From a phage, in sequence record PZ445511.1: a stretch of DNA of 64,000 nt. One strand, 5' to 3'. The notes beneath the pieces were generated by a model that saw only the letters and a program-made list of their open reading frames with translations, searched no databases and was not told where the DNA came from. Shown piece by piece: positions 2,725 to 58,893 of the stretch. The stretch's first letter is position 1. Each line of letters begins with the position of its first letter. The position numbers and the translations under genes are program-made.

Positions 2725-3615
2725 TTATACCAAATCTTTGAGCGATTCGGCAACTAAAATTTCAATACGTTGAGCCAACATATCGATCTCTTCTTTATTT
2801 AAATCACCTGGGTCTTTGCCTTCTGGAAGAAGGAAGTTACCAACTATAGGTGTTAAACGTGTTTTTGTACGAATTAGCTTCGCTAGTGCTTGGGCAGCTT
2901 TATTACCAGAGGCATCATTATCTAGCAAGATAACAACTACTCTTACTCCAGCAATAATGTAAGGACTAAACTTATCCGCAATGTTATCAGATGTAAACTG
3001 ATGTGTACCAAAGCAGCAAGAAGCATAATCTACACCATTGTCTTCTAGATTTAACATATCAAAGATACCTTCAACTAGAACAAGAACTGGTGTATTATAT
3101 CGTACAGGGAAAATCGGTGGTGAAACTTGTTTTGGTTTTACTAAGTATTTAGGAGGGGCAGAACTGTTTATAGAACGTCCCAGGAATAGGATATTGCGTC
3201 CAACAGCATCTGTTATTGGGAATACAATTCTGCCTTCCCAGTCTGCTTGATGTTGGAAAGCAAAATATTTCTTCAAGGTCTTAGAACTGATACCTCGGAA
3301 ATCACCTTCGAAAAGGTAAGCAGATTCAGGAATTGCAAGATTCGTAGATCCATTCCTAATCTCTGAAATCTTTTTACGTACTTGTGACAATCTTGGGGAC
3401 TGTCTGTACTGAGTCTCATTAAAATAATGGTAAATGCTCGGTATTCCTCTACCGAAGCCACAGCTCAAGCAATGCATAATACCTGATTCAGGATCAATAC
3501 GCAAGCTTGGGTGTTTATCATCATGATCTGGATTGAGACAACAGATGAGGATGTCCCCACCTGTGTCTTTGTATTCAATGCCTTTCAGATCAAGTAGTTC
3601 TGTTATTCTACTCAT
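2725..3615 (-). CDS. DnaG-like DNA primase
   Basis: 296 aa; N-terminal zinc-binding CxxH...CxxC region, TOPRIM-like EGxxD and DxD motifs (VLVEGIFDML, LLDNDASG). Confidence 0.8.
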   Translation of the reverse strand: MSRITELLDLKGIEYKDTGGDILICCLNPDHDDKHPSLRIDPESGIMHCLSCGFGRGIPSIYHYFNETQYRQSPRLSQVRKKISEIRNGSTNLAIPESAYLFEGDFRGISSKTLKKYFAFQHQADWEGRIVFPITDAVGRNILFLGRSINSSAPPKYLVKPKQVSPPIFPVRYNTPVLVLVEGIFDMLNLEDNGVDYASCCFGTHQFTSDNIADKFSPYIIAGVRVVVILLDNDASGNKAAQALAKLIRTKTRLTPIVGNFLLPEGKDPGDLNKEEIDMLAQRIEILVAESLKDLV

Positions 3616-5135
3616 ATATCGCTGGCCTGTTCACCTGTTGAATTTTCAGCTTTGTCTTTCTTAGCACGTTTAGGTTGAGCTGGTTTATCCTTTTCAATAG
3701 GAATAACGAACTCAGCTTCCATTTGCGCAATATCTTCCATTGCTAGGTTGGTAGTGTTATCCATTCGCAGAGTTTCCCAGTTCATCTTAGGCATAAACTT
3801 CACACTATCAGAGGAACGAGTCTTAACGAAGTCAAACATAATAGCACCTTGACCATTATCAGCTTTTGCAGCATTAAGATTAGCAGCCATATCTGCGGAA
3901 TCAAGAATCCCTTTAGACATACGCGTTCTACCATCTTGGTCAATCTGATAAGGAGCAACACCAGCCACGTTATGTTTCTGGCAGATAGATTTGAAAGACG
4001 AACTAACAACCATCTGTTCTTTCCAGTCATACATGTCAATGGTCTTTGAATCTGGAAGTCTTGTTTGGTTAATATAGTCTAGAAGAGCTACAGTAACCTT
4101 ATCACCATACTTAGCAACTAGTTTATTTAATTCTACGTCAACCGTCGTAATAGACAGTTCAGGATCGTAAACGATGATCATAGGAGTGTGAAGTTCATAG
4201 CTTTCAAGGAGTTTACTTTCCATATCATAGAAGTCACTCATTTTAGCCATAGTGTACTGCTTAACGAAACTATCGAAAAGCTCTTCACCACCATTAAACA
4301 TTCTAGCCCTAGTTCTGGCTAATCTCAACAGAGCAGCACCTTCAAGAGTGTTATTACGCATTGCTAATGCAGATACTCCAGCTAACATAGCCAGATTACG
4401 TCTAAACACTTCGTGCTCTTTCATCTCAATTGAGAAATATGGAGCAATGTCTCCATTCAAATATTGCTGAACCTGTATGTTTGAACAGATAATGGATTTA
4501 CCAGTACCACGCCAACCACCAAGCAGTAACGTTTCTGTGCGAGCTAAACCAATTTGAGCGTCGAACTCATTACAAATACCAAGAGCGATCAAGTTCAGTT
4601 TGGTATCTTCTTCTCTCTGGAAAATACGCATTGTGTCCGCGTTGAATACCTTTCCAGTATTCGTTACTTTCTCTTCTAATTTTAAGTGAAGGGAGGCAAC
4701 TCGATTGAGAATTTCTCCCTGATCCAGCATTGTTAAATCTTGAAGCACGTCTGTTTCTAGAAGTTTCAGGAATAGATCCTGTGTATATTCAGCTTCTAGG
4801 ACTTCAAGTGCCTGTTCCATGCTCACTTCTGGAATTTGAGTGTTAGCTAAGACGACAAGAGCTTGAGAAAGGCGGGCGTTCCTATTGGCCTCAAGCATCA
4901 GTGCGTCAATGGACGGCATTGCGTTATATTTCTTATAATAATTCTGGACGGCTTGGTAAATTGAGGAGAAAGCGTCATTAAAATGATCTTTATGCAGTTT
5001 TGAGAATGTTTCCAATGCTATTTGCTTCTGTTCAGAAGCGAGAAGCATCTTCAACACTACAGCTTGCACGTTAAACAAGGTCATTCTCCTTTGCACGCTT
5101 TCGTGCCTTCTAAATGCAAAAAGGGGAAGGAGCAT
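3612..5135 (-). CDS. DnaB-like replicative DNA helicase
   Basis: 507 aa; Walker A-like GGWRGTGKS; 4-nt overlap (ATGA) with primase gene; start could instead be the internal Met at 5084. Confidence 0.8.
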   Translation of the reverse strand: MLLPLFAFRRHESVQRRMTLFNVQAVVLKMLLASEQKQIALETFSKLHKDHFNDAFSSIYQAVQNYYKKYNAMPSIDALMLEANRNARLSQALVVLANTQIPEVSMEQALEVLEAEYTQDLFLKLLETDVLQDLTMLDQGEILNRVASLHLKLEEKVTNTGKVFNADTMRIFQREEDTKLNLIALGICNEFDAQIGLARTETLLLGGWRGTGKSIICSNIQVQQYLNGDIAPYFSIEMKEHEVFRRNLAMLAGVSALAMRNNTLEGAALLRLARTRARMFNGGEELFDSFVKQYTMAKMSDFYDMESKLLESYELHTPMIIVYDPELSITTVDVELNKLVAKYGDKVTVALLDYINQTRLPDSKTIDMYDWKEQMVVSSSFKSICQKHNVAGVAPYQIDQDGRTRMSKGILDSADMAANLNAAKADNGQGAIMFDFVKTRSSDSVKFMPKMNWETLRMDNTTNLAMEDIAQMEAEFVIPIEKDKPAQPKRAKKDKAENSTGEQASDI

Positions 5136-5148
5136 AGCCCCCTCCCCT
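5118..5148 (-). terminator. Rho-independent terminator after the 255-aa gene; helicase ATG sits in its loop
   Basis: On minus transcript a 9-bp GC-rich stem (aggggaggg/ccttcccct) followed by UUUU. Confidence 0.5.
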
Positions 5149-5166
5149 TAGGTTTAATTTACCAGA

Positions 5167-5934
5167 TTATTCAGCAGCCGCAGCTTTTGCATCCAGTTTA
5201 GCACGCTTAGCGGCACCATCATAGTCCTTAGCAACCAGACCACGACGAGACAGCATAGATTTAACACCGCGCTCAGACTTACCAGTTTTCTCAGCGATCT
5301 CAGCAACAGTCATGTTAGCCAGATCCAGACCTTCTAACAGATCTTCACGAGTTTTAGCACTTGAAGTTTCCTGTACCGGCATAGCAGCGATACGACCTTC
5401 ACGAAGCAGGCTCAGAGCTTTACCACGGATCTGCTTAATATTGCGACCGAAGTGAGCAGCGATAGCTTCAATAGTAGCACCAGCAACAACCTGATTAACG
5501 AAATCAGTTTCTTCGTCAGGAGTGAAGGAACGAACAGCAGCAGTTTTTTCAGTTGGCTTAACAGAAGCAGTCATTTCCAGACTCAGGATCTTACCCTGTA
5601 CCTGCTTAGCACCGAACTGACCACCAGCTACAGCAGCAGCGATTTCAGCGTAAGTATACTGACCAGCATGAGCGTTCAGGAAATCAACCAGTTCAGCTTC
5701 CTGTTCAGGAGTCCACGGGGATTTCTGTACTTCGTTAGCTTTCTGTACTTCGAAACCTTCTTTACGCAGCTTAGAGCCAACAGAGCGAGCGGTAACGTCT
5801 TTACCAGTCTCGGTAGCCAGTTCAGCAGCGATAGCAGCTACTTGTTCTTGAGAGATTACAGCAACACCCAGAGCAGTGGCTTTTGCTTTCAGAGACTCGG
5901 TTACACCTTCTACGTTCCAGTTCAGTTTAGACAT
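5167..5934 (-). CDS. Putative DNA-binding replication protein (possible T5 D5-like)
   Basis: 255 aa, Ala/Lys/Glu-rich with internal repeats; sits between ligase and helicase genes; identity inferred from position only. Confidence 0.4.
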   Translation of the reverse strand: MSKLNWNVEGVTESLKAKATALGVAVISQEQVAAIAAELATETGKDVTARSVGSKLRKEGFEVQKANEVQKSPWTPEQEAELVDFLNAHAGQYTYAEIAAAVAGGQFGAKQVQGKILSLEMTASVKPTEKTAAVRSFTPDEETDFVNQVVAGATIEAIAAHFGRNIKQIRGKALSLLREGRIAAMPVQETSSAKTREDLLEGLDLANMTVAEIAEKTGKSERGVKSMLSRRGLVAKDYDGAAKRAKLDAKAAAAE

Positions 5935-6709
5935 TATTATTTTTCTCCAATAGTTCTTTAATCGACAGGATTTCTATCCCATTCGTTTCGGCTTTCTTAT
6001 AAGATGAGGAAGAACGTTTTGATTCATCCTCACAGATTAGGTATTTGACGTCTTTGGTAACGGACTTCTTGACCGTATATCCTAGACTTTCTAAATAGTT
6101 TGTTGCATCCGTTCGATTTGCAAAATCTTGCAAAGATCCGGTAATACAGATCGTGATTCCATTTGGCTGGGCAACTAAATCATCTGTAATGATGATGTCA
6201 GCTTTAGCACCTCGGATACCAGTTGAGAATTTCCACGGTAATTCAATAACATCCTTGCCTTGTGGGGAATTTAGCCAGGTTTTGTAATTTTCTCCAGCCT
6301 TGCCGTCAGCCTTCACATCGTGGAAGCTAGTGCAATTTTGGGACAGTTTCTTTGCTGCAACCTCTCCAATAAGAGGAATTCCTAAAGAACCGAGAACTGA
6401 ACCAAAGTCAATGTCTCCGCGAACCTTAGTATTTAACTCGCTAATCAATTTAGCGGCAACCTTGCTACCCACAGCTCCGACCAAATCTTCTTCGGTCAGG
6501 TAAAACAGTTCTGAGATCTTAGTCAGCTCCAGCTTCTCAATAGTTTTCGGGCCAAAGCCCTTTAACTTCATTTTTGTGCAGAAGTTCTCGATTAACTTAC
6601 TTGATTGCGCTGGACAGTTGGACTTATTCCTACAGAATAATTGCCCGTTGACAAGATCTAGCTTAGAACCACAAGAGGGACATTGTGTTGGAATTTCGAT
6701 TTTCATCAA
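5927..6709 (-). CDS. ligB: NAD-dependent DNA ligase, C-terminal subunit (Zn finger, HhH, BRCT)
   Basis: 260 aa; zinc-finger CPSCGSKL...CRNKSNC at N-terminus, HhH-like and BRCT-like C-terminus; separate ORF from adenylation domain. Confidence 0.8.
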   Translation of the reverse strand: MMKIEIPTQCPSCGSKLDLVNGQLFCRNKSNCPAQSSKLIENFCTKMKLKGFGPKTIEKLELTKISELFYLTEEDLVGAVGSKVAAKLISELNTKVRGDIDFGSVLGSLGIPLIGEVAAKKLSQNCTSFHDVKADGKAGENYKTWLNSPQGKDVIELPWKFSTGIRGAKADIIITDDLVAQPNGITICITGSLQDFANRTDATNYLESLGYTVKKSVTKDVKYLICEDESKRSSSSYKKAETNGIEILSIKELLEKNNNV

Positions 6710-6736
6710 ATTTCTTCCTTATCAATTTATATAAAT

Positions 6737-6765
6737 ATTATAGCAAGTATTTAAGCATTTAGCAA
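6737..6765 (-). promoter_or_regulatory. Sigma70 promoter for ligB (minus strand)
   Basis: Reverse complement reads ttgcta-17bp-tataat followed by conserved atttatataaattga leader. Confidence 0.6.
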
Positions 6766-6908
6766 CTACAATTTTAACTAACTTTGCTTACCCTCGCCAT
6801 AACTTTCTATCCCTCAACTGAATGATAATAGTATATACCTAAGCGGCGAAAATGTCAATAACCACTTTATAATTCCGACATGGTAAATGGGTAGCAAAGG
6901 GTTACGAA

Positions 6909-7880
6909 TTAGTCGTATACTCGCTCTACTATACAAGGGATTACACCACCAGCACGAATCACTCGAATCTGGCAACCGATCTCTAAATCGAGAGCGTTAA
7001 TATAATCAACGTTATTAAGAGTTGCTTTAACGATTGTGGCATCATCAATAATCACCGGTTCGAAATAACCAACTGGAGTTACTTTACCAGAAGCCCCTAC
7101 TTGCCATTCAACTTTAACAAGTGTGGTAATTTCGCCTTCTTCATCCTCTTTAATAGCAAATGCACCACGAGGAAATTTATTAGTCCAACCTTCACGGAAG
7201 AATTTATTGTTGTCGTTAATGCGAACAACTTTACCATCTGTCGGAATCCATTTAAAGAAGGAACGAACATTAACAACTGTCAAGAAGTTCTCATTCTCTA
7301 GCCAAAGCATATCTTTTAAATAGGCTTCTGTAATACCGACTGTTTCCGCTGAACACTGGATACCATATGCAACGAAGATTAAACCACCTTCACCAATACG
7401 TTGGATGAAATCATCGCTGTCTTTCAGGTTAATAGCACCCGAAGCGTAGTTACGTTTGTTCTCTACTTCTTTAGTAATTAGAACTTCACCAGTGATTTGA
7501 GTTGGTACTTTTTGGGAAATAGTTTTGGGGATGTTCAGCATTTTAACATTATGCGTTACATCATTCCCTAGAATACCGTTACCACGAGTTAACGCTTGAA
7601 CAAACTCACCATTAATATATAATAGAGAAATCGCACAACCATCTAACTTATCAGTTTCAACCTGACCAAGTGGGTTGAATGGAGCTTTATCACCACGATC
7701 GTAATAGACTTTCTGCAAAGAATACATACGATACAAATGAGGGATATCACCTTTCGGTCCGATTTCTTCCTCTAGTGGGAATCTTTTAATCAGACGATCA
7801 TATTCTTCGTCAGAGATTAAAGACATACCTTGATAATATGCTTCTTGACAGCGTTTAATAAATTCTTTTACATTAGTCAT
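6909..7880 (-). CDS. ligA: NAD-dependent DNA ligase, adenylation-domain subunit
   Basis: 323 aa; KxDG adenylation motif (ETDKLDGCAISL); N-terminal Ia-like region. Confidence 0.85.
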   Translation of the reverse strand: MTNVKEFIKRCQEAYYQGMSLISDEEYDRLIKRFPLEEEIGPKGDIPHLYRMYSLQKVYYDRGDKAPFNPLGQVETDKLDGCAISLLYINGEFVQALTRGNGILGNDVTHNVKMLNIPKTISQKVPTQITGEVLITKEVENKRNYASGAINLKDSDDFIQRIGEGGLIFVAYGIQCSAETVGITEAYLKDMLWLENENFLTVVNVRSFFKWIPTDGKVVRINDNNKFFREGWTNKFPRGAFAIKEDEEGEITTLVKVEWQVGASGKVTPVGYFEPVIIDDATIVKATLNNVDYINALDLEIGCQIRVIRAGGVIPCIVERVYD

Positions 7881-7911
7881 TTATTTATATCTCTCATCAA
7901 TTTATATAAAT

Positions 7912-7940
7912 ATTATATAACAAAACTGAGTCGAAAGCAA
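7912..7940 (-). promoter_or_regulatory. Sigma70 promoter for ligA (minus strand)
   Basis: Reverse complement ttgctt-17bp-tataat plus atttatataaattgatgagag leader. Confidence 0.6.
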
Positions 7941-7950
7941 GTACATTTAT

Positions 7951-7985
7951 AAAGAAAAAGCCAAGAATGCCTAGTTCTTGGCTTT
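7951..7985 (-). terminator. Rho-independent terminator (minus strand)
   Basis: Minus transcript hairpin gccaagaa...ttcttggc followed by UUUUU. Confidence 0.6.
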
Positions 7986-8276
7986 GAGTTCTTCAGCTCG
8001 TTTCTGTACTTCATGCAATACCTCGGATTCACTGAGGATTTGCGTAAAAGCGTAAAATAGCTGTGATGTAGTTTCTAGGGTATAAGGAAAAGAGAAGCCG
8101 GATTTCGTTGGAAACCACTCTCCAGTAATATCTTGGAGCCAGTAACGAATTCCCATGTATAGATTCCCACGAAATTCAGATACGGTTAGTCTTACTTGTT
8201 CCCCCTCCTTCTCCCAAAGCATGATGGACTGGTCGTCAACGTGTCCTTCATAGTTTTGATTTACCTGATCGCTCAT
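7971..8276 (-). CDS. Hypothetical protein
   Basis: 101-aa ORF in operon context; no recognisable motif. Confidence 0.5.
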   Translation of the reverse strand: MSDQVNQNYEGHVDDQSIMLWEKEGEQVRLTVSEFRGNLYMGIRYWLQDITGEWFPTKSGFSFPYTLETTSQLFYAFTQILSESEVLHEVQKRAEELKAKN

Positions 8277-30887: not shown

Positions 30888-30916
30888 TTGCTAATTAGTT
30901 TAGTTTTCTGTATAAT
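30888..30916 (+). promoter_or_regulatory. Sigma70 promoter
   Basis: ttgcta-17bp-tataat. Confidence 0.55.
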
Positions 30917-30946
30917 ATATTTTTAAATTGATGAGACGAGGCTATT

Positions 30947-31726: not shown

Positions 31727-31755
31727 TTGCTTTAAGCCTTAAAATTCTGTATAAT
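31727..31755 (+). promoter_or_regulatory. Sigma70 promoter
   Basis: ttgctt-17bp-tataat. Confidence 0.55.
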
Positions 31756-31787
31756 AACTGTATAAATTGATGAGAGGAAAGCGAACA

Positions 31788-39978: not shown

Positions 39979-40251
39979 ATGCATCCTGAAAACTTCTTTA
40001 TATACTGTACTAGTCCTTTGCTTAAACGCCGGATTAATAAAGTATATCACTACAGAGCTAGTCAACAGCCTTATGTTTATGATTCTAGTGGAGATCATAT
40101 TCCACTTGAGCAACTAGGGACTGATTATATGGTTTTGAAGCACTTTAATGAGGCGAAGATCTCTAGCGTTCATAACCGACAAAACTCTAAAACGTGGTGG
40201 CATAAGAAGCGTAAGAAAGGCATCAAATTTCTTAAAAATGTAGTTGCTTAA
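39979..40251 (+). CDS. Hypothetical protein
   Basis: Track ORF begins at TTG 39964 abutting the tRNA; ATG at 39979 has aggag at proper spacing. Confidence 0.45.
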   Translation: MHPENFFIYCTSPLLKRRINKVYHYRASQQPYVYDSSGDHIPLEQLGTDYMVLKHFNEAKISSVHNRQNSKTWWHKKRKKGIKFLKNVVA

Positions 40252-40272
40252 ATCCTTAAAGTTCTGTATAAT
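40244..40272 (+). promoter_or_regulatory. Sigma70 promoter
   Basis: ttgctt-17bp-tataat overlapping upstream stop codon. Confidence 0.55.
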
Positions 40273-40300
40273 TATTACATAAATTGAACTGGAGAACTAG

Positions 40301-42939: not shown

Positions 42940-43299
42940 TTGCAAATGCAATTATCAAGCAAGATTCAAGGCTATTTTGGTCATGTAACAATGGAGTTCG
43001 CTATCTCTAAAGGTTGGGATTTCGAGCAAGATCTAGCTGAGTTCTACAAAGATATTGATCTGAACGTACCATACATGGGACTCTCCACTGGTCAAGAGAT
43101 CACAGAAGGCGATGTGTTCAAGGCAAGTCAAGGTGAGGTAACACCTAATTTTGCCAAGTTCTGGTTAGGACTTACTTTGAAGGAAGATGCACCAGAGGAT
43201 GGTGTGGTTATGCAGAGTATGCACTCTGGAAGCTCTGATTACCTTTTCGTTAGCGACGTTAAGGAACTACAAGAAATCGCTAAAAATGTACTTGCTTGA
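42940..43299 (+). CDS. Hypothetical protein
   Basis: 119-aa ORF (TTG start per track; internal ATG 6 nt later) after aaggaa RBS. Confidence 0.5.
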   Translation: MQMQLSSKIQGYFGHVTMEFAISKGWDFEQDLAEFYKDIDLNVPYMGLSTGQEITEGDVFKASQGEVTPNFAKFWLGLTLKEDAPEDGVVMQSMHSGSSDYLFVSDVKELQEIAKNVLA

Positions 43300-43320
43300 T
43301 GCTTAATTTCTTGTTATAAT
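43292..43320 (+). promoter_or_regulatory. Sigma70 promoter overlapping upstream stop codon
   Basis: ttgctt-17bp-tataat then gatgagga-GAAA-tcctcatc hairpin in leader. Confidence 0.55.
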
Positions 43321-43582
43321 ATTTATATAAATTGATGAGGAGAAATCCTCATCAAAGTTCACTAAGGTATTAGCTCGACCTAGGGCTGGCTGCCAAAAAG
43401 CACAATTGCAATTAGACCCCTAATGGCGGGGGATACTTTGCAATAAGTTCTAGATTAGTCCACTAGATTCAGTGGCAACTGAATAGTGTATCGGGTTTGT
43501 GAAGAGCGGTTATCCTCTACTGGCTAATGTCTGAGGGTAATACGCACACCGAGCTAATAGCCTTAGTAAACTTAAAGATTTT

Positions 43583-46123: not shown

Positions 46124-46152
46124 TTGCCTTCTCTCTTATTTCTTGTTATAAT
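46124..46152 (+). promoter_or_regulatory. Sigma70 promoter
   Basis: ttgcct-17bp-tataat. Confidence 0.5.
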
Positions 46153-46182
46153 ATTTATATAAATTAATTAGAGGGAAACCAA

Positions 46183-48489: not shown

Positions 48490-48518
48490 TTGCTAAAACC
48501 CTCTCCTTTTGATATAAT
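48490..48518 (+). promoter_or_regulatory. Sigma70 promoter
   Basis: ttgcta-17bp-tataat. Confidence 0.55.
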
Positions 48519-48548
48519 ATTTATATAAATTGATGAGAGGGCTTTGAA

Positions 48549-50612: not shown

Positions 50613-50641
50613 TTGCTCAGATGCCACAAGTATTGTATAAT
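50613..50641 (+). promoter_or_regulatory. Sigma70 promoter
   Basis: ttgctc-17bp-tataat. Confidence 0.55.
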
Positions 50642-50672
50642 ATGTTTATAGATTGAGGCAAAAGGATAATTT

Positions 50673-55153: not shown

Positions 55154-55182
55154 TTGACTTTCCGCTGAAATTTTTATATAAT
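55154..55182 (+). promoter_or_regulatory. Sigma70 promoter
   Basis: ttgact-17bp-tataat. Confidence 0.55.
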
Positions 55183-55215
55183 ATTTGTATAAATTGAATC
55201 AGAGGAGTTTCACAA

Positions 55216-58832: not shown

Positions 58833-58861
58833 TTGCTAAATGTCCAGAAATCTTATATAAT
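58833..58861 (+). promoter_or_regulatory. Sigma70 promoter
   Basis: ttgcta-17bp-tataat. Confidence 0.55.
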
Positions 58862-58893
58862 ATATTTATAAATTAATGAGAGAGGAAGTTCAA

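What the first reader, a model, noticed from the sequence alone, without database searches (positions are those of the whole stretch)
5927..7880. NAD-dependent DNA ligase split into two genes separated by a promoter-containing spacer
The adenylation domain (KxDG) and the Zn-finger/HhH/BRCT part are separate ORFs about 200 bp apart, each with its own promoter. A two-subunit ligase is unusual and may reflect an ancient insertion scar.
Basis: partly seen in the sequence, partly recalled or inferred. Interest (0 to 1): 0.45.

Follow-up and report, generated by a model that had tools for sequence, protein, structure and literature searches.

The report
T5-type two-subunit NAD-dependent DNA ligase
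This is the well-known split DNA ligase of T5-like phages: two neighbouring genes, ligA and ligB, with two strong early promoters between them, and a related phage's version has been solved as a heterodimer on nicked DNA, so the finding is real but ordinary.

Summary
On the minus strand, 6909..7880 encodes a 323-aa protein with domain Ia, the adenylation domain (K78-L-D-G81) and the OB fold. 5927..6706 encodes a 259-aa protein with a Cys4 zinc finger, HhH repeats and BRCT. The roughly 200-bp spacer carries two sigma-70 promoters. A third promoter lies upstream of ligA.

The window is an Epseptimavirus-type T5-like phage, 99.8% identical to phage MSP1. These genes are the ligA and ligB annotated in phage T5 and in hundreds of relatives. 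The T5 record names the two spacer promoters P-K28b and P-K28a. [quoted passage not shown]

PDB entries 9HU3 and 9I5I (released 2026) are the [quoted passage not shown]. That enzyme is an ortholog, about 54% identical (Foldseek, LigA).

In 86 related loci the break lies at the same OB|zinc-finger junction, and none is fused. A sequencing error is therefore excluded.

The "insertion scar" idea has no positive support. The spacer is conserved promoter DNA. Short gaps of 57-140 bp dominate the environmental clade. Cargo genes in the gap, including a T5orf172/GIY-YIG-like ORF, are confined to particular lineages.

Verdict: already known, low interest.

The parts
6909..7880 (-). [quoted passage not shown] Contains domain Ia, the nucleotidyltransferase/adenylation domain with K78xDG, and the OB fold.
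   Evidence: ORF. Pfam PF01653 (E 1.8e-23) and PF03120 (E 9.1e-22). phmmer to 9hu3_A gives E 2.3e-106. About 96% aa identity to T5 ligA. Catalytic residues aligned to E. coli LigA.
5927..6706 (-). ligB: NAD-dependent DNA ligase subunit B, 259 aa from ATG 6706 (the ORF tool's TTG at 6709 would add one residue). Contains a Cys4 zinc finger (C9, C12, C25, C31), HhH repeats and BRCT.
   Evidence: ORF. BRCT E 7.7e-9. phmmer to 9hu3_B 'DNA ligase subunit B' gives E 1.5e-79, and to E. coli 2owo_A residues 402-529 and 585-666. Annotated ligB in S114 and T5.
6707..6908 (-). Intergenic spacer between ligA and ligB (199-202 bp). It holds two tandem promoters and the ligB ribosome-binding site (AAGGAAG, 7 nt before the ATG).
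   Evidence: Sequence. Alignment with T5, TrudiRoth and Klebsiella phage P5010. Rfam finds nothing here.
6830..6858 (-). Promoter, P-K28b-like (TTGACA-17-TATACT).
   Evidence: Scan (11 of 12 matches). Annotated 'T5 promoter P-K 28b-like' in S114 and 'promoter P-K 28b' in T5. The hexamers are invariant in 4 phages.
6722..6765 (-). Promoter, P-K28a-like (TTGCTA-17-TATAAT), plus the conserved initial transcribed block ATTTATATAAATTGA.
   Evidence: 10 of 12 matches, TG before the -10. (exact member of an 11-copy promoter family in the window, 0 expected by chance). Annotated P-K 28a in T5 and S114.
7897..7940 (-). ligA promoter (TTGCTT-17-TATAAT) with the same conserved downstream block.
   Evidence: 0 mismatches to the family pattern. 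(25-nt direct repeat, 6718-6742 and 7893-7917). Annotated as a promoter in T5 and S114.
7957..7985 (-). Intrinsic terminator of the upstream gene. It insulates the ligA promoter.
   Evidence: 11-pair stem followed by a T run.
5167..5934 (-). D5 DNA-binding protein gene. Its ATG overlaps the ligB stop by 8 nt (ATGTCTAA), so it is co-transcribed, and probably translationally coupled, with ligB from the spacer promoters.
   Evidence: ORFs, sequence, annotation.
5121..5149 (-). Intrinsic terminator after D5, the likely end of the ligB-D5 transcription unit.
   Evidence: 13-pair stem with 8 GC pairs, followed by a T run.

Best explanation
The region encodes the two-subunit NAD+-dependent DNA ligase of a T5-like phage (family Demerecviridae, Epseptimavirus type).

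**What each subunit does.**
- LigA (323 aa) carries domain Ia, the adenylyltransferase domain with the active-site lysine K78, and the OB fold. It performs self-adenylation with NAD+ and the chemistry at the nick.
- LigB (259 aa) carries the zinc finger, HhH and BRCT modules. In one-piece bacterial LigA these modules supply DNA binding and close the clamp around nicked DNA.
- The two polypeptides assemble non-covalently into a heterodimer on nicked duplex DNA. The complex reproduces the domain order of bacterial LigA, with the chain broken in the OB-to-zinc-finger linker.

**Transcription.**
- The genes are co-directional early genes.
- ligA is transcribed from its own T5-type sigma-70 promoter.
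- No terminator separates ligA from ligB, so that transcript should continue into ligB.
- Two further strong tandem promoters in the spacer (P-K28b and P-K28a of T5) add transcription of ligB and of the overlapping D5 gene.

**Evolution.** The fission is ancient. It is shared, at the same junction, by all sampled Demerecviridae and by a large environmental sister clade.

**Shown here:** gene structure, domain content, conserved catalytic residues, promoter motifs and their conservation, orthology, and the phylogenetic breadth of the split.

**Taken from public records:** heterodimer formation on nicked DNA (titles of PDB 9HU3 and 9I5I, for the PR1 ortholog) and promoter identity (T5 GenBank annotation).

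**Inferred:** the division of labour between the subunits, read-through from ligA into ligB, and a higher output of ligB and D5.
For: - **Domains.** Pfam domains.
- **Catalytic and structural residues** aligned to E. coli LigA: Y16, D24, Y27, D28 of domain Ia; K78, D80, G81; R99; E132; R143; D215; K244; R309. The four zinc-finger cysteines were read directly from the sequence (C9, C12, C25, C31).
- **T5 record.** ligA 65364..66335, promoters P-K28b and P-K28a, ligB 66538..67317. The S114 record has the same layout.
- **Promoters.** Scan. An 11-member promoter family in the window against 0 expected. Promoter hexamers invariant across the window, T5, TrudiRoth and Klebsiella phage P5010.
- **Solved ortholog.** 9hu3_A matches at E 2.3e-106 and 9hu3_B 'DNA ligase subunit B' at E 1.5e-79. 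The source is identified as Providencia phage vB_PreS_PR1. The entry titles read 'PR1 phage heterodimeric DNA ligase in complex with 21-mer nicked DNA...'.
- **Breadth of the split.** All 120 best protein homologs of LigA are 240-337 aa and carry only the aden+OB domains. In 86 related loci the LigA ORF stops just after the OB fold. ligB lies downstream on the same strand in 78 of them, with gaps of 57-1559 bp.
[quoted passage not shown] PMC3632103 and PMC4319617 list the A and B subunits.
Against: - No biochemical data exist for this particular phage's proteins. Heterodimer formation is extrapolated from an ortholog about 54% identical (Foldseek, LigA).
- Some residues essential in E. coli LigA are not matched in the pairwise alignment: H23->Q, R208->N, K290->R, R333->A, R277 in a gap. 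The alignment is unreliable in those low-identity stretches.
- The Pfam HHH_2 hit is below its gathering score (21.6 against 27 bits).
- I could not find or read the primary paper behind 9HU3/9I5I in the held library.
- Promoter activity in this phage is inferred from sequence identity to the annotated T5 promoters. It was not measured.
Confidence: 0.93

Rival explanations
1. Historical origin by insertion. An ancestral one-piece ligase gene was cut in two by a mobile element, such as a free-standing homing endonuclease gene. The present spacer would be what remained after that element was lost. This concerns origin only and is compatible with the best explanation of present function.
For: - The gap accepts foreign genes in relatives: a 64-aa ORF in six Epseptimaviruses, a NADAR-domain gene, a DprA-like gene, a 2OG-Fe(II) oxygenase and DUF6552.
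- A roughly 122-aa T5orf172-like (GIY-YIG superfamily) ORF lies directly upstream of ligB in 13 of the 15 IMG/VR loci that carry it.
- From my own knowledge there is a precedent: phage Aeh1 nrdA is split by the homing endonuclease gene mobE.
Against: - The window's spacer has no ORF or remnant. It is occupied by two conserved promoters.
- Rfam finds no intron-like RNA.
- The T5orf172 match is marginal (21.9 bits against a cut-off of 20).
- The T5orf172-like ORF is confined to two neighbouring groups inside one environmental sub-clade (with T5orf172-free loci nested among them) in a rough NJ tree. Most environmental loci have gaps of 57-140 bp. This points to later gain rather than an ancestral cause.
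- No fused close relative exists to polarise the event.
Confidence: 0.15
2. Artefact or pseudogene. A frameshift or assembly error has broken a single ligase ORF.
For: None beyond the bare fact of two ORFs.
Against: - The same two-gene layout appears in 459 independently sequenced phage records and in 80 IMG/VR contigs.
- About 200 bp of non-coding promoter DNA lies between the ORFs.
- Both ORFs are intact and conserved.
- The ortholog has been solved as two chains.
Confidence: 0.01
3. A single ligase polypeptide is made after all, by translational bypassing, RNA splicing or protein trans-splicing through a split intein.
For: Phages do use such tricks elsewhere: T4 gene 60 bypassing, group I introns, split inteins (own knowledge).
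Against: - The frames differ and the gap is about 200 nt containing promoters.
- There is no Rfam intron hit.
- LigA plus LigB (582 aa) align end to end with E. coli LigA domains, leaving no extra residues for intein halves.
- In relatives the gap holds up to 1.5 kb of other genes.
- The PR1 enzyme is deposited as a heterodimer.
Confidence: 0.01
4. The two proteins are not obligate partners. LigB, a zinc-finger/HhH/BRCT protein co-transcribed with D5, would have a separate DNA-binding or scaffolding role, and LigA would act alone or with another partner.
For: - ligB has its own strong promoters and overlaps D5 rather than ligA.
- In seven environmental loci no ligB was found within 1-5 kb downstream of ligA.
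Against: - ligA and ligB co-occur, co-oriented and adjacent, in 78 of the 86 related loci.
- The break point is conserved.
- PMC1684257 reports that a LigA-type enzyme lacking the ZnF/HhH/BRCT part still adenylates, and that this C-terminal part plays an important role in steps after adenylation.
- The PR1 heterodimer has been solved on nicked DNA.
Confidence: 0.03

Closest known systems
Bacteriophage T5 ligA/ligB (T5.116 and T5.117, NC_005859; Wang et al. 2005, as cited in PMC1684257)
   Same: Same gene order, same sizes (972 and 780 nt), about 96% amino-acid identity, the same roughly 200-bp spacer with promoters P-K28b and P-K28a, and the same downstream D5 and D6 genes.
   Different: Only species-level sequence differences. 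The window belongs to the EPS7/S114-type Epseptimavirus group rather than to Tequintavirus.
Providencia phage vB_PreS_PR1 heterodimeric DNA ligase, PDB 9HU3 and 9I5I (released 2026)
   Same: Orthologous two-chain enzyme: chain A 339 aa and chain B 248 aa. The break point and domain content are the same.
   Different: About 54% identity (Foldseek, LigA). The PR1 B chain lacks about 11 residues before the BRCT domain. No structure or assay exists for the window's own proteins.
Bacterial one-piece LigA (E. coli LigA, 671 aa; PDB 2OWO on nicked DNA-adenylate)
   Same: Same domain order: Ia, NTase, OB, zinc finger, HhH, BRCT. The key adenylation and zinc-binding residues are conserved.
   Different: The phage enzyme is two polypeptides with a combined length of 582 aa. 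Identity is about 26% in the Foldseek match (184 identical of 566 aligned columns in the MAFFT alignment). The domain Ia-to-NTase linker and the HhH region are shortened. The OB-to-zinc-finger linker is replaced by a stop, a promoter-bearing spacer and a new start.
Genes-in-pieces made by homing-endonuclease insertion (phage Aeh1 nrdA-a/nrdA-b split by mobE; own knowledge)
   Same: An essential phage DNA-metabolism enzyme encoded as two polypeptides that reassemble.
   Different: The window has no endonuclease gene and no remnant of one between the halves. T5orf172-like ORFs occur in the gap only in a derived environmental sub-clade.

Membership tests
NAD+-dependent DNA ligase (LigA family) | Nucleotidyltransferase motif I KxDG with the adenylated lysine, plus motifs III, IV and V | tested here: met
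   K78-L-D80-G81, E132, D215 and K244 align with E. coli K115, D117, G118, E173, D285 and K314. PF01653 E 1.8e-23.
NAD+-dependent DNA ligase (LigA family) | N-terminal domain Ia with the NMN-binding residues that confer NAD+ specificity (E. coli Y22, D32, Y35, D36) | tested here: met
   Y16, D24, Y27 and D28 are conserved. H23 is replaced by Q17. A14, Y15, E25, Y27 and D28 are invariant among 10 diverse split homologs.
NAD+-dependent DNA ligase (LigA family) | OB-fold domain following the NTase domain | tested here: met
   PF03120 E 9.1e-22, residues 252-321. Aligns to 1v9p, 2owo and 1dgs residues of about 284-390.
NAD+-dependent DNA ligase (LigA family) | Cys4 zinc finger, HhH domain and BRCT domain | tested here: met
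   LigB C9, C12, C25 and C31 are read from the sequence. LigB residues 3-122 align to 2owo_A 402-529, and residues 169-253 to 585-666. BRCT PF00533 E 7.7e-9. The Pfam HHH_2 hit is below its cut-off.
NAD+-dependent DNA ligase (LigA family) | All domains on one polypeptide | tested here: not met
   There are two ORFs in different frames, separated by 199-202 bp. This is the feature that defines the T5-type variant.
NAD+-dependent DNA ligase (LigA family) | NAD+-dependent nick-sealing activity | not testable with these tools
   Requires an enzyme assay.
T5-type heterodimeric LigA/LigB ligase (Demerecviridae) | Two co-directional genes with the break in the OB-to-zinc-finger linker | tested here: met
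   LigA ends ...GGVIPCIVERVYD* and LigB starts MKIEIPTQCPSCGS. The same junction is found in the Klebsiella, Proteus, Providencia and Vibrio phages and in 80 IMG/VR loci.
T5-type heterodimeric LigA/LigB ligase (Demerecviridae) | Orthology to T5 ligA/ligB and to the PR1 chains A and B | tested here: met
   About 96% identity to the T5 genes. E 2.3e-106 and 1.5e-79 to 9hu3_A and 9hu3_B. The AlphaFold model matches 9hu3_A with TM 0.80.
T5-type heterodimeric LigA/LigB ligase (Demerecviridae) | Physical heterodimer on nicked DNA | not testable with these tools
   Known for the PR1 ortholog only, from the PDB entry titles.
Gene split by a resident homing endonuclease or intron (genes in pieces) | An endonuclease gene, intron RNA or intein between or within the halves | tested here: not met
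   The spacer holds no annotated or conserved coding ORF (the only ORFs in it, 53 and 37 aa, overlap the end of ligA). There is no Rfam hit. There are no extra residues relative to E. coli LigA. T5orf172-like ORFs occur only in distant environmental loci.

The most novel reading that the evidence does not exclude
The OB|zinc-finger junction may be more than a passive fission. It could be a long-lived landing site for accessory and selfish genes: a T5orf172/GIY-YIG-like ORF, NADAR, DprA-like and small ORFs in different lineages. On this reading the original split was made by such an element. The separation is now exploited for regulation, with ligB expressed together with D5 from the strong P-K28a/b promoters at a different level from ligA.
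Probability: 0.12. Interest if true: 0.35.

Novelty: already known. Interest (0 to 1): 0.1.

Why it matters
It matters little as a discovery. The split ligase of T5-like phages has been annotated since the T5 genome was published in 2005 and is now structurally characterised.

The locus is still a clean natural example of a multidomain DNA-repair enzyme working as two non-covalently associated chains. That is relevant to ligase engineering and to how T5-type phages handle their nicked genomes.

The comparative survey adds two modest points. The fission predates the divergence of the cultured Demerecviridae from a large environmental clade. The gap between the genes repeatedly gains and loses cargo genes.

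Tried and rejected
- **Rfam scan of 5700-8100 at E<=1.** The only hit was a chance-level match (Ysr251, 16.9 bits against a gathering score of 100). There is no intron or riboswitch.
- **Literature searches for the paper behind 9HU3/9I5I and for 'split', 'heterodimeric' or 'two-subunit' DNA ligase.** Nothing relevant is in the held library.
- **Search for 'PK28a/PK28b'.** It returned only unrelated K28A mutants. The identity of the promoters therefore rests on the T5 and S114 GenBank annotations and on my recollection of Gentz and Bujard 1985.
- **Retron Eco2 and jumbo-phage papers.** Neither bears on this ligase.
- **Sequencing error, translational bypass or read-through, and split intein.** All rejected on comparative and alignment grounds.
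- **Homing-endonuclease scar.** I looked for endonuclease ORFs in the ligA-ligB gap of 86 related loci. No HNH endonuclease was found. A marginal T5orf172-like ORF occurs in one environmental sub-clade.
Full report
**What is in the sequence**

On the minus strand, ORF 6909..7880 encodes 323 aa. ORF 5927..6709 encodes 260 aa from a TTG start, or 259 aa from the ATG at 6706.

- The first ORF matches the Pfam NAD-dependent ligase adenylation domain (E 1.8e-23) and the ligase OB-fold domain (E 9.1e-22).
- The second matches BRCT (E 7.7e-9) and, weakly, HHH_2.
- The second starts with a Cys4 zinc-finger sequence, CPSCGS...FCRNKSNC.

The upstream gene also carries domain Ia and the OB fold, so the break lies between the OB fold and the zinc finger. 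The ATG at 6706 is the start used in the S114 and T5 annotations. It also matches the N-terminus of the solved ortholog.

The two frames differ (1174 nt between the starts, which is 1 mod 3). The intervening 199-202 bp is non-coding.

**The spacer and the promoters**

A consensus scan finds two sigma-70 promoters on the coding strand inside the spacer:
- TTGACA-17-TATACT at 6858..6830
- TTGCTA-17-TATAAT at 6765..6737

It finds no terminator between the genes. Upstream of ligA lies TTGCTT-17-TATAAT (7940..7912), directly after an intrinsic terminator at 7985..7957.

The ligA promoter and the ligB-proximal promoter share a 25-nt block. Both belong to a family, TTGCT-N18-TATAATATTTATATAAATTGA, that occurs 11 times in the window against 0 expected.

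The ligB stop overlaps the start of the next gene, D5, by 8 nt. A strong terminator follows D5 at 5149..5121. My inference is that ligA transcripts run on into ligB, and that the spacer promoters add transcription of ligB and D5.

**Identity of the phage and prior annotation**

The 2.4-kb region is 99.8% identical to phage MSP1. It matches 459 phage records, mostly Salmonella and Escherichia T5-like phages. [quoted passage not shown]

The S114 record (Epseptimavirus) labels the two spacer promoters 'T5 promoter P-K 28b-like' and 'P-K 28a-like'. The T5 reference genome has exactly the same layout:
- ligA 65364..66335
- promoter P-K 28b
- promoter P-K 28a
- ligB 66538..67317
- then D5 and D6

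An alignment of the spacer from the window, T5, TrudiRoth and Klebsiella phage P5010 shows both -35/-10 pairs and their downstream blocks invariant. This holds even though the Klebsiella phage is only about 72-74% identical in the ligase genes.

[quoted passage not shown] PMC3632103 and PMC4319617 list the A and B subunits.

**Structural knowledge**

Sequence searches of the PDB gave these results:
- LigA hits 9hu3_A ('DNA ligase (NAD(+))', 339 aa) at E 2.3e-106.
- LigB hits 9hu3_B ('DNA ligase subunit B', 248 aa) at E 1.5e-79.
- Weaker matches go to the corresponding halves of one-piece bacterial LigA: 2OWO, 1DGS, 1V9P.

The 9HU3 A-chain sequence is 100% identical to Providencia phage vB_PreS_PR1.

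An AlphaFold model of the window's LigA (pLDDT 78) matches 9hu3_A with TM 0.80. The entry titles are 'PR1 phage heterodimeric DNA ligase in complex with 21-mer nicked DNA containing phage nick sequence' (released 2026-01-14) and the same '(random sequence)' (released 2026-02-18).

The two-subunit enzyme has therefore been demonstrated for an ortholog. I could not find the associated paper in the held library.

**Catalytic competence**

I aligned LigA+LigB against E. coli LigA, translated from NC_000913. The following are conserved:
- domain Ia residues Y16, D24, Y27, D28
- motif I K78-x-D80-G81
- R99, E132, R143, D215, K244, R309
- HhH glycines G52, G80, G114 of LigB

The four zinc-finger cysteines are present. 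The aligner mis-gapped one of them, but by direct reading C25 and C31 have the same 5-residue spacing as E. coli C426 and C432.

The combined 582 aa are fully accounted for by ligase domains. That leaves no room for intein halves.

A few E. coli-essential residues are not matched (H23->Q, R208->N, K290->R, R333->A). They fall in poorly aligned stretches.

**How old and how general the split is**

All 120 best protein homologs of LigA, down to about 47% identity, are 240-337 aa and carry only the adenylation and OB domains.

Annotated relatives show the same two genes with different gap contents:

| Phage | Gap | Gap contents |
|---|---|---|
| Klebsiella phage P5010 | 199 bp | none |
| TrudiRoth | 358 bp | 64-aa ORF |
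| Proteus phage M4H10_20 | 344 bp | small ORF |
| Vibrio phage D254 | about 770 bp | two or three small ORFs |
| Vibrio phage Cody | 1048 bp | hypothetical gene plus a DprA-like gene |

I also fetched 80 IMG/VR loci using a LigA alignment.

Across 86 related loci the LigA ORF always stops right after the OB fold. In 78 of them ligB follows on the same strand at 57-1559 bp. In seven, no ligB lies within the 1-5 kb of available downstream DNA. One locus ends at the contig edge. No fused form was seen.

**Testing the 'insertion scar' idea**

The gap ORFs of relatives include:
- a NADAR-domain protein
- a 2OG-Fe(II) oxygenase
- DUF6552
- a DUF1281_C protein
- a recurring ORF of about 122 aa that marginally matches T5orf172, a GIY-YIG-superfamily domain (21.9 bits against a cut-off of 20)

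That last ORF is present in 15 loci, and in 13 of them it sits just upstream of ligB.

A rough neighbour-joining tree of LigA places the T5orf172-bearing loci in two neighbouring groups within one environmental sub-clade, with T5orf172-free loci nested among them. The rest of the environmental clade has gaps of 57-140 bp (apart from one 591-bp gap, L042), and the cultured Demerecviridae have gaps of about 190-1050 bp.

The 64-aa TrudiRoth ORF occurs, 100% identical and at the same site, in only six Epseptimaviruses.

The gap is therefore a recurrent site of cargo gain and loss. Nothing indicates that a mobile element caused the fission. The window's spacer is conserved regulatory DNA rather than a decaying remnant. 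Rfam finds no intron-like RNA. The idea remains possible but unsupported.

**Verdict**

The 'two-subunit ligase' interpretation is correct but already known, and now structurally established in an ortholog. 'Resequencing shows a continuous ORF' is ruled out by hundreds of independent genomes. The 'ancient insertion scar' remains speculation. Novelty: already known. Interest: low.

Noticed in passing
IMG/VR loci L025, L030, L032, L037, L043, L049-L052, L058, L060, L067, L069, L078, L084 (for example L030 7066-7455): A conserved ORF of about 122 aa with a marginal T5orf172 (GIY-YIG superfamily) match. In 13 of the 15 loci (environmental relatives) it sits immediately upstream of ligB, inside the ligA-ligB gap. 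In the LigA tree it falls in two neighbouring groups of one environmental sub-clade.
   Followed up: partly
L018 5999-6800; L005 3469-4517; L042; L043; L046 and L049 downstream of ligA: The ligA-ligB gap holds varied cargo in relatives. L018, a Proteus-phage-like genome, has a NADAR-domain gene. Vibrio phage Cody has a DprA-like gene. Others have a 2OG-Fe(II) oxygenase or DUF6552. In L046 and L049 more than 2-5 kb, including radical-SAM-like and QueC-like ORFs, follows ligA with no ligB in reach.
   Followed up: partly
L008 2079-2273 (TrudiRoth); also phages bastian, smaug, 1-23, S132, 8sent65: A 64-aa ORF with no detectable homologs is inserted right after the ligA stop in six Epseptimaviruses. 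It is 100% identical among them and absent from the window and from T5. This is an insertion/deletion polymorphism of the spacer among close relatives.
   Followed up: yes
window 6722-6765, 7897-7940, 30888-30931, 31727-31770, 40244-40287, 43292-43335, 46124-46167, 48490-48533, 50613-50656, 55154-55197, 58833-58876: Eleven copies of a T5-type early promoter with a conserved initial transcribed block (TTGCT-N18-TATAAT ATTTATATAAATTGA). None is expected by chance. The two on the minus strand flank ligA, and the other nine are on the plus strand in the 30-59 kb part of the window.
   Followed up: partly
window 5927-5934: The ligB stop codon and the D5 start codon overlap by 8 nt (ATGTCTAA). This suggests translational coupling of ligB with the D5 DNA-binding protein gene.
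   Followed up: no
window 5084-5149 (start of the D6/dnaB-like ORF 3612..5135): The longest start of the replicative-helicase ORF (5135) lies inside the terminator hairpin at 5121-5149. T5 D6 is annotated 5 aa shorter, so the true start is probably further downstream.
   Followed up: no
Database records OR848168.1 (Listeria phage LM 4-14-1), the 'Campylobacter' phage records, and P0023 (Enterococcus faecalis partial protein): Records labelled as Listeria or Campylobacter phages, and as an Enterococcus faecalis protein, are 94-95% identical to this enterobacterial T5-like ligase locus. They are probably contaminated or mislabelled.
   Followed up: no
L006 (MG969412.1, Salmonella phage GE_vB_N5, UNVERIFIED): In this record ligA and ligB appear only as fragmented, low-identity pieces. 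That is consistent with a low-quality, frameshifted assembly rather than a biological variant.
   Followed up: no
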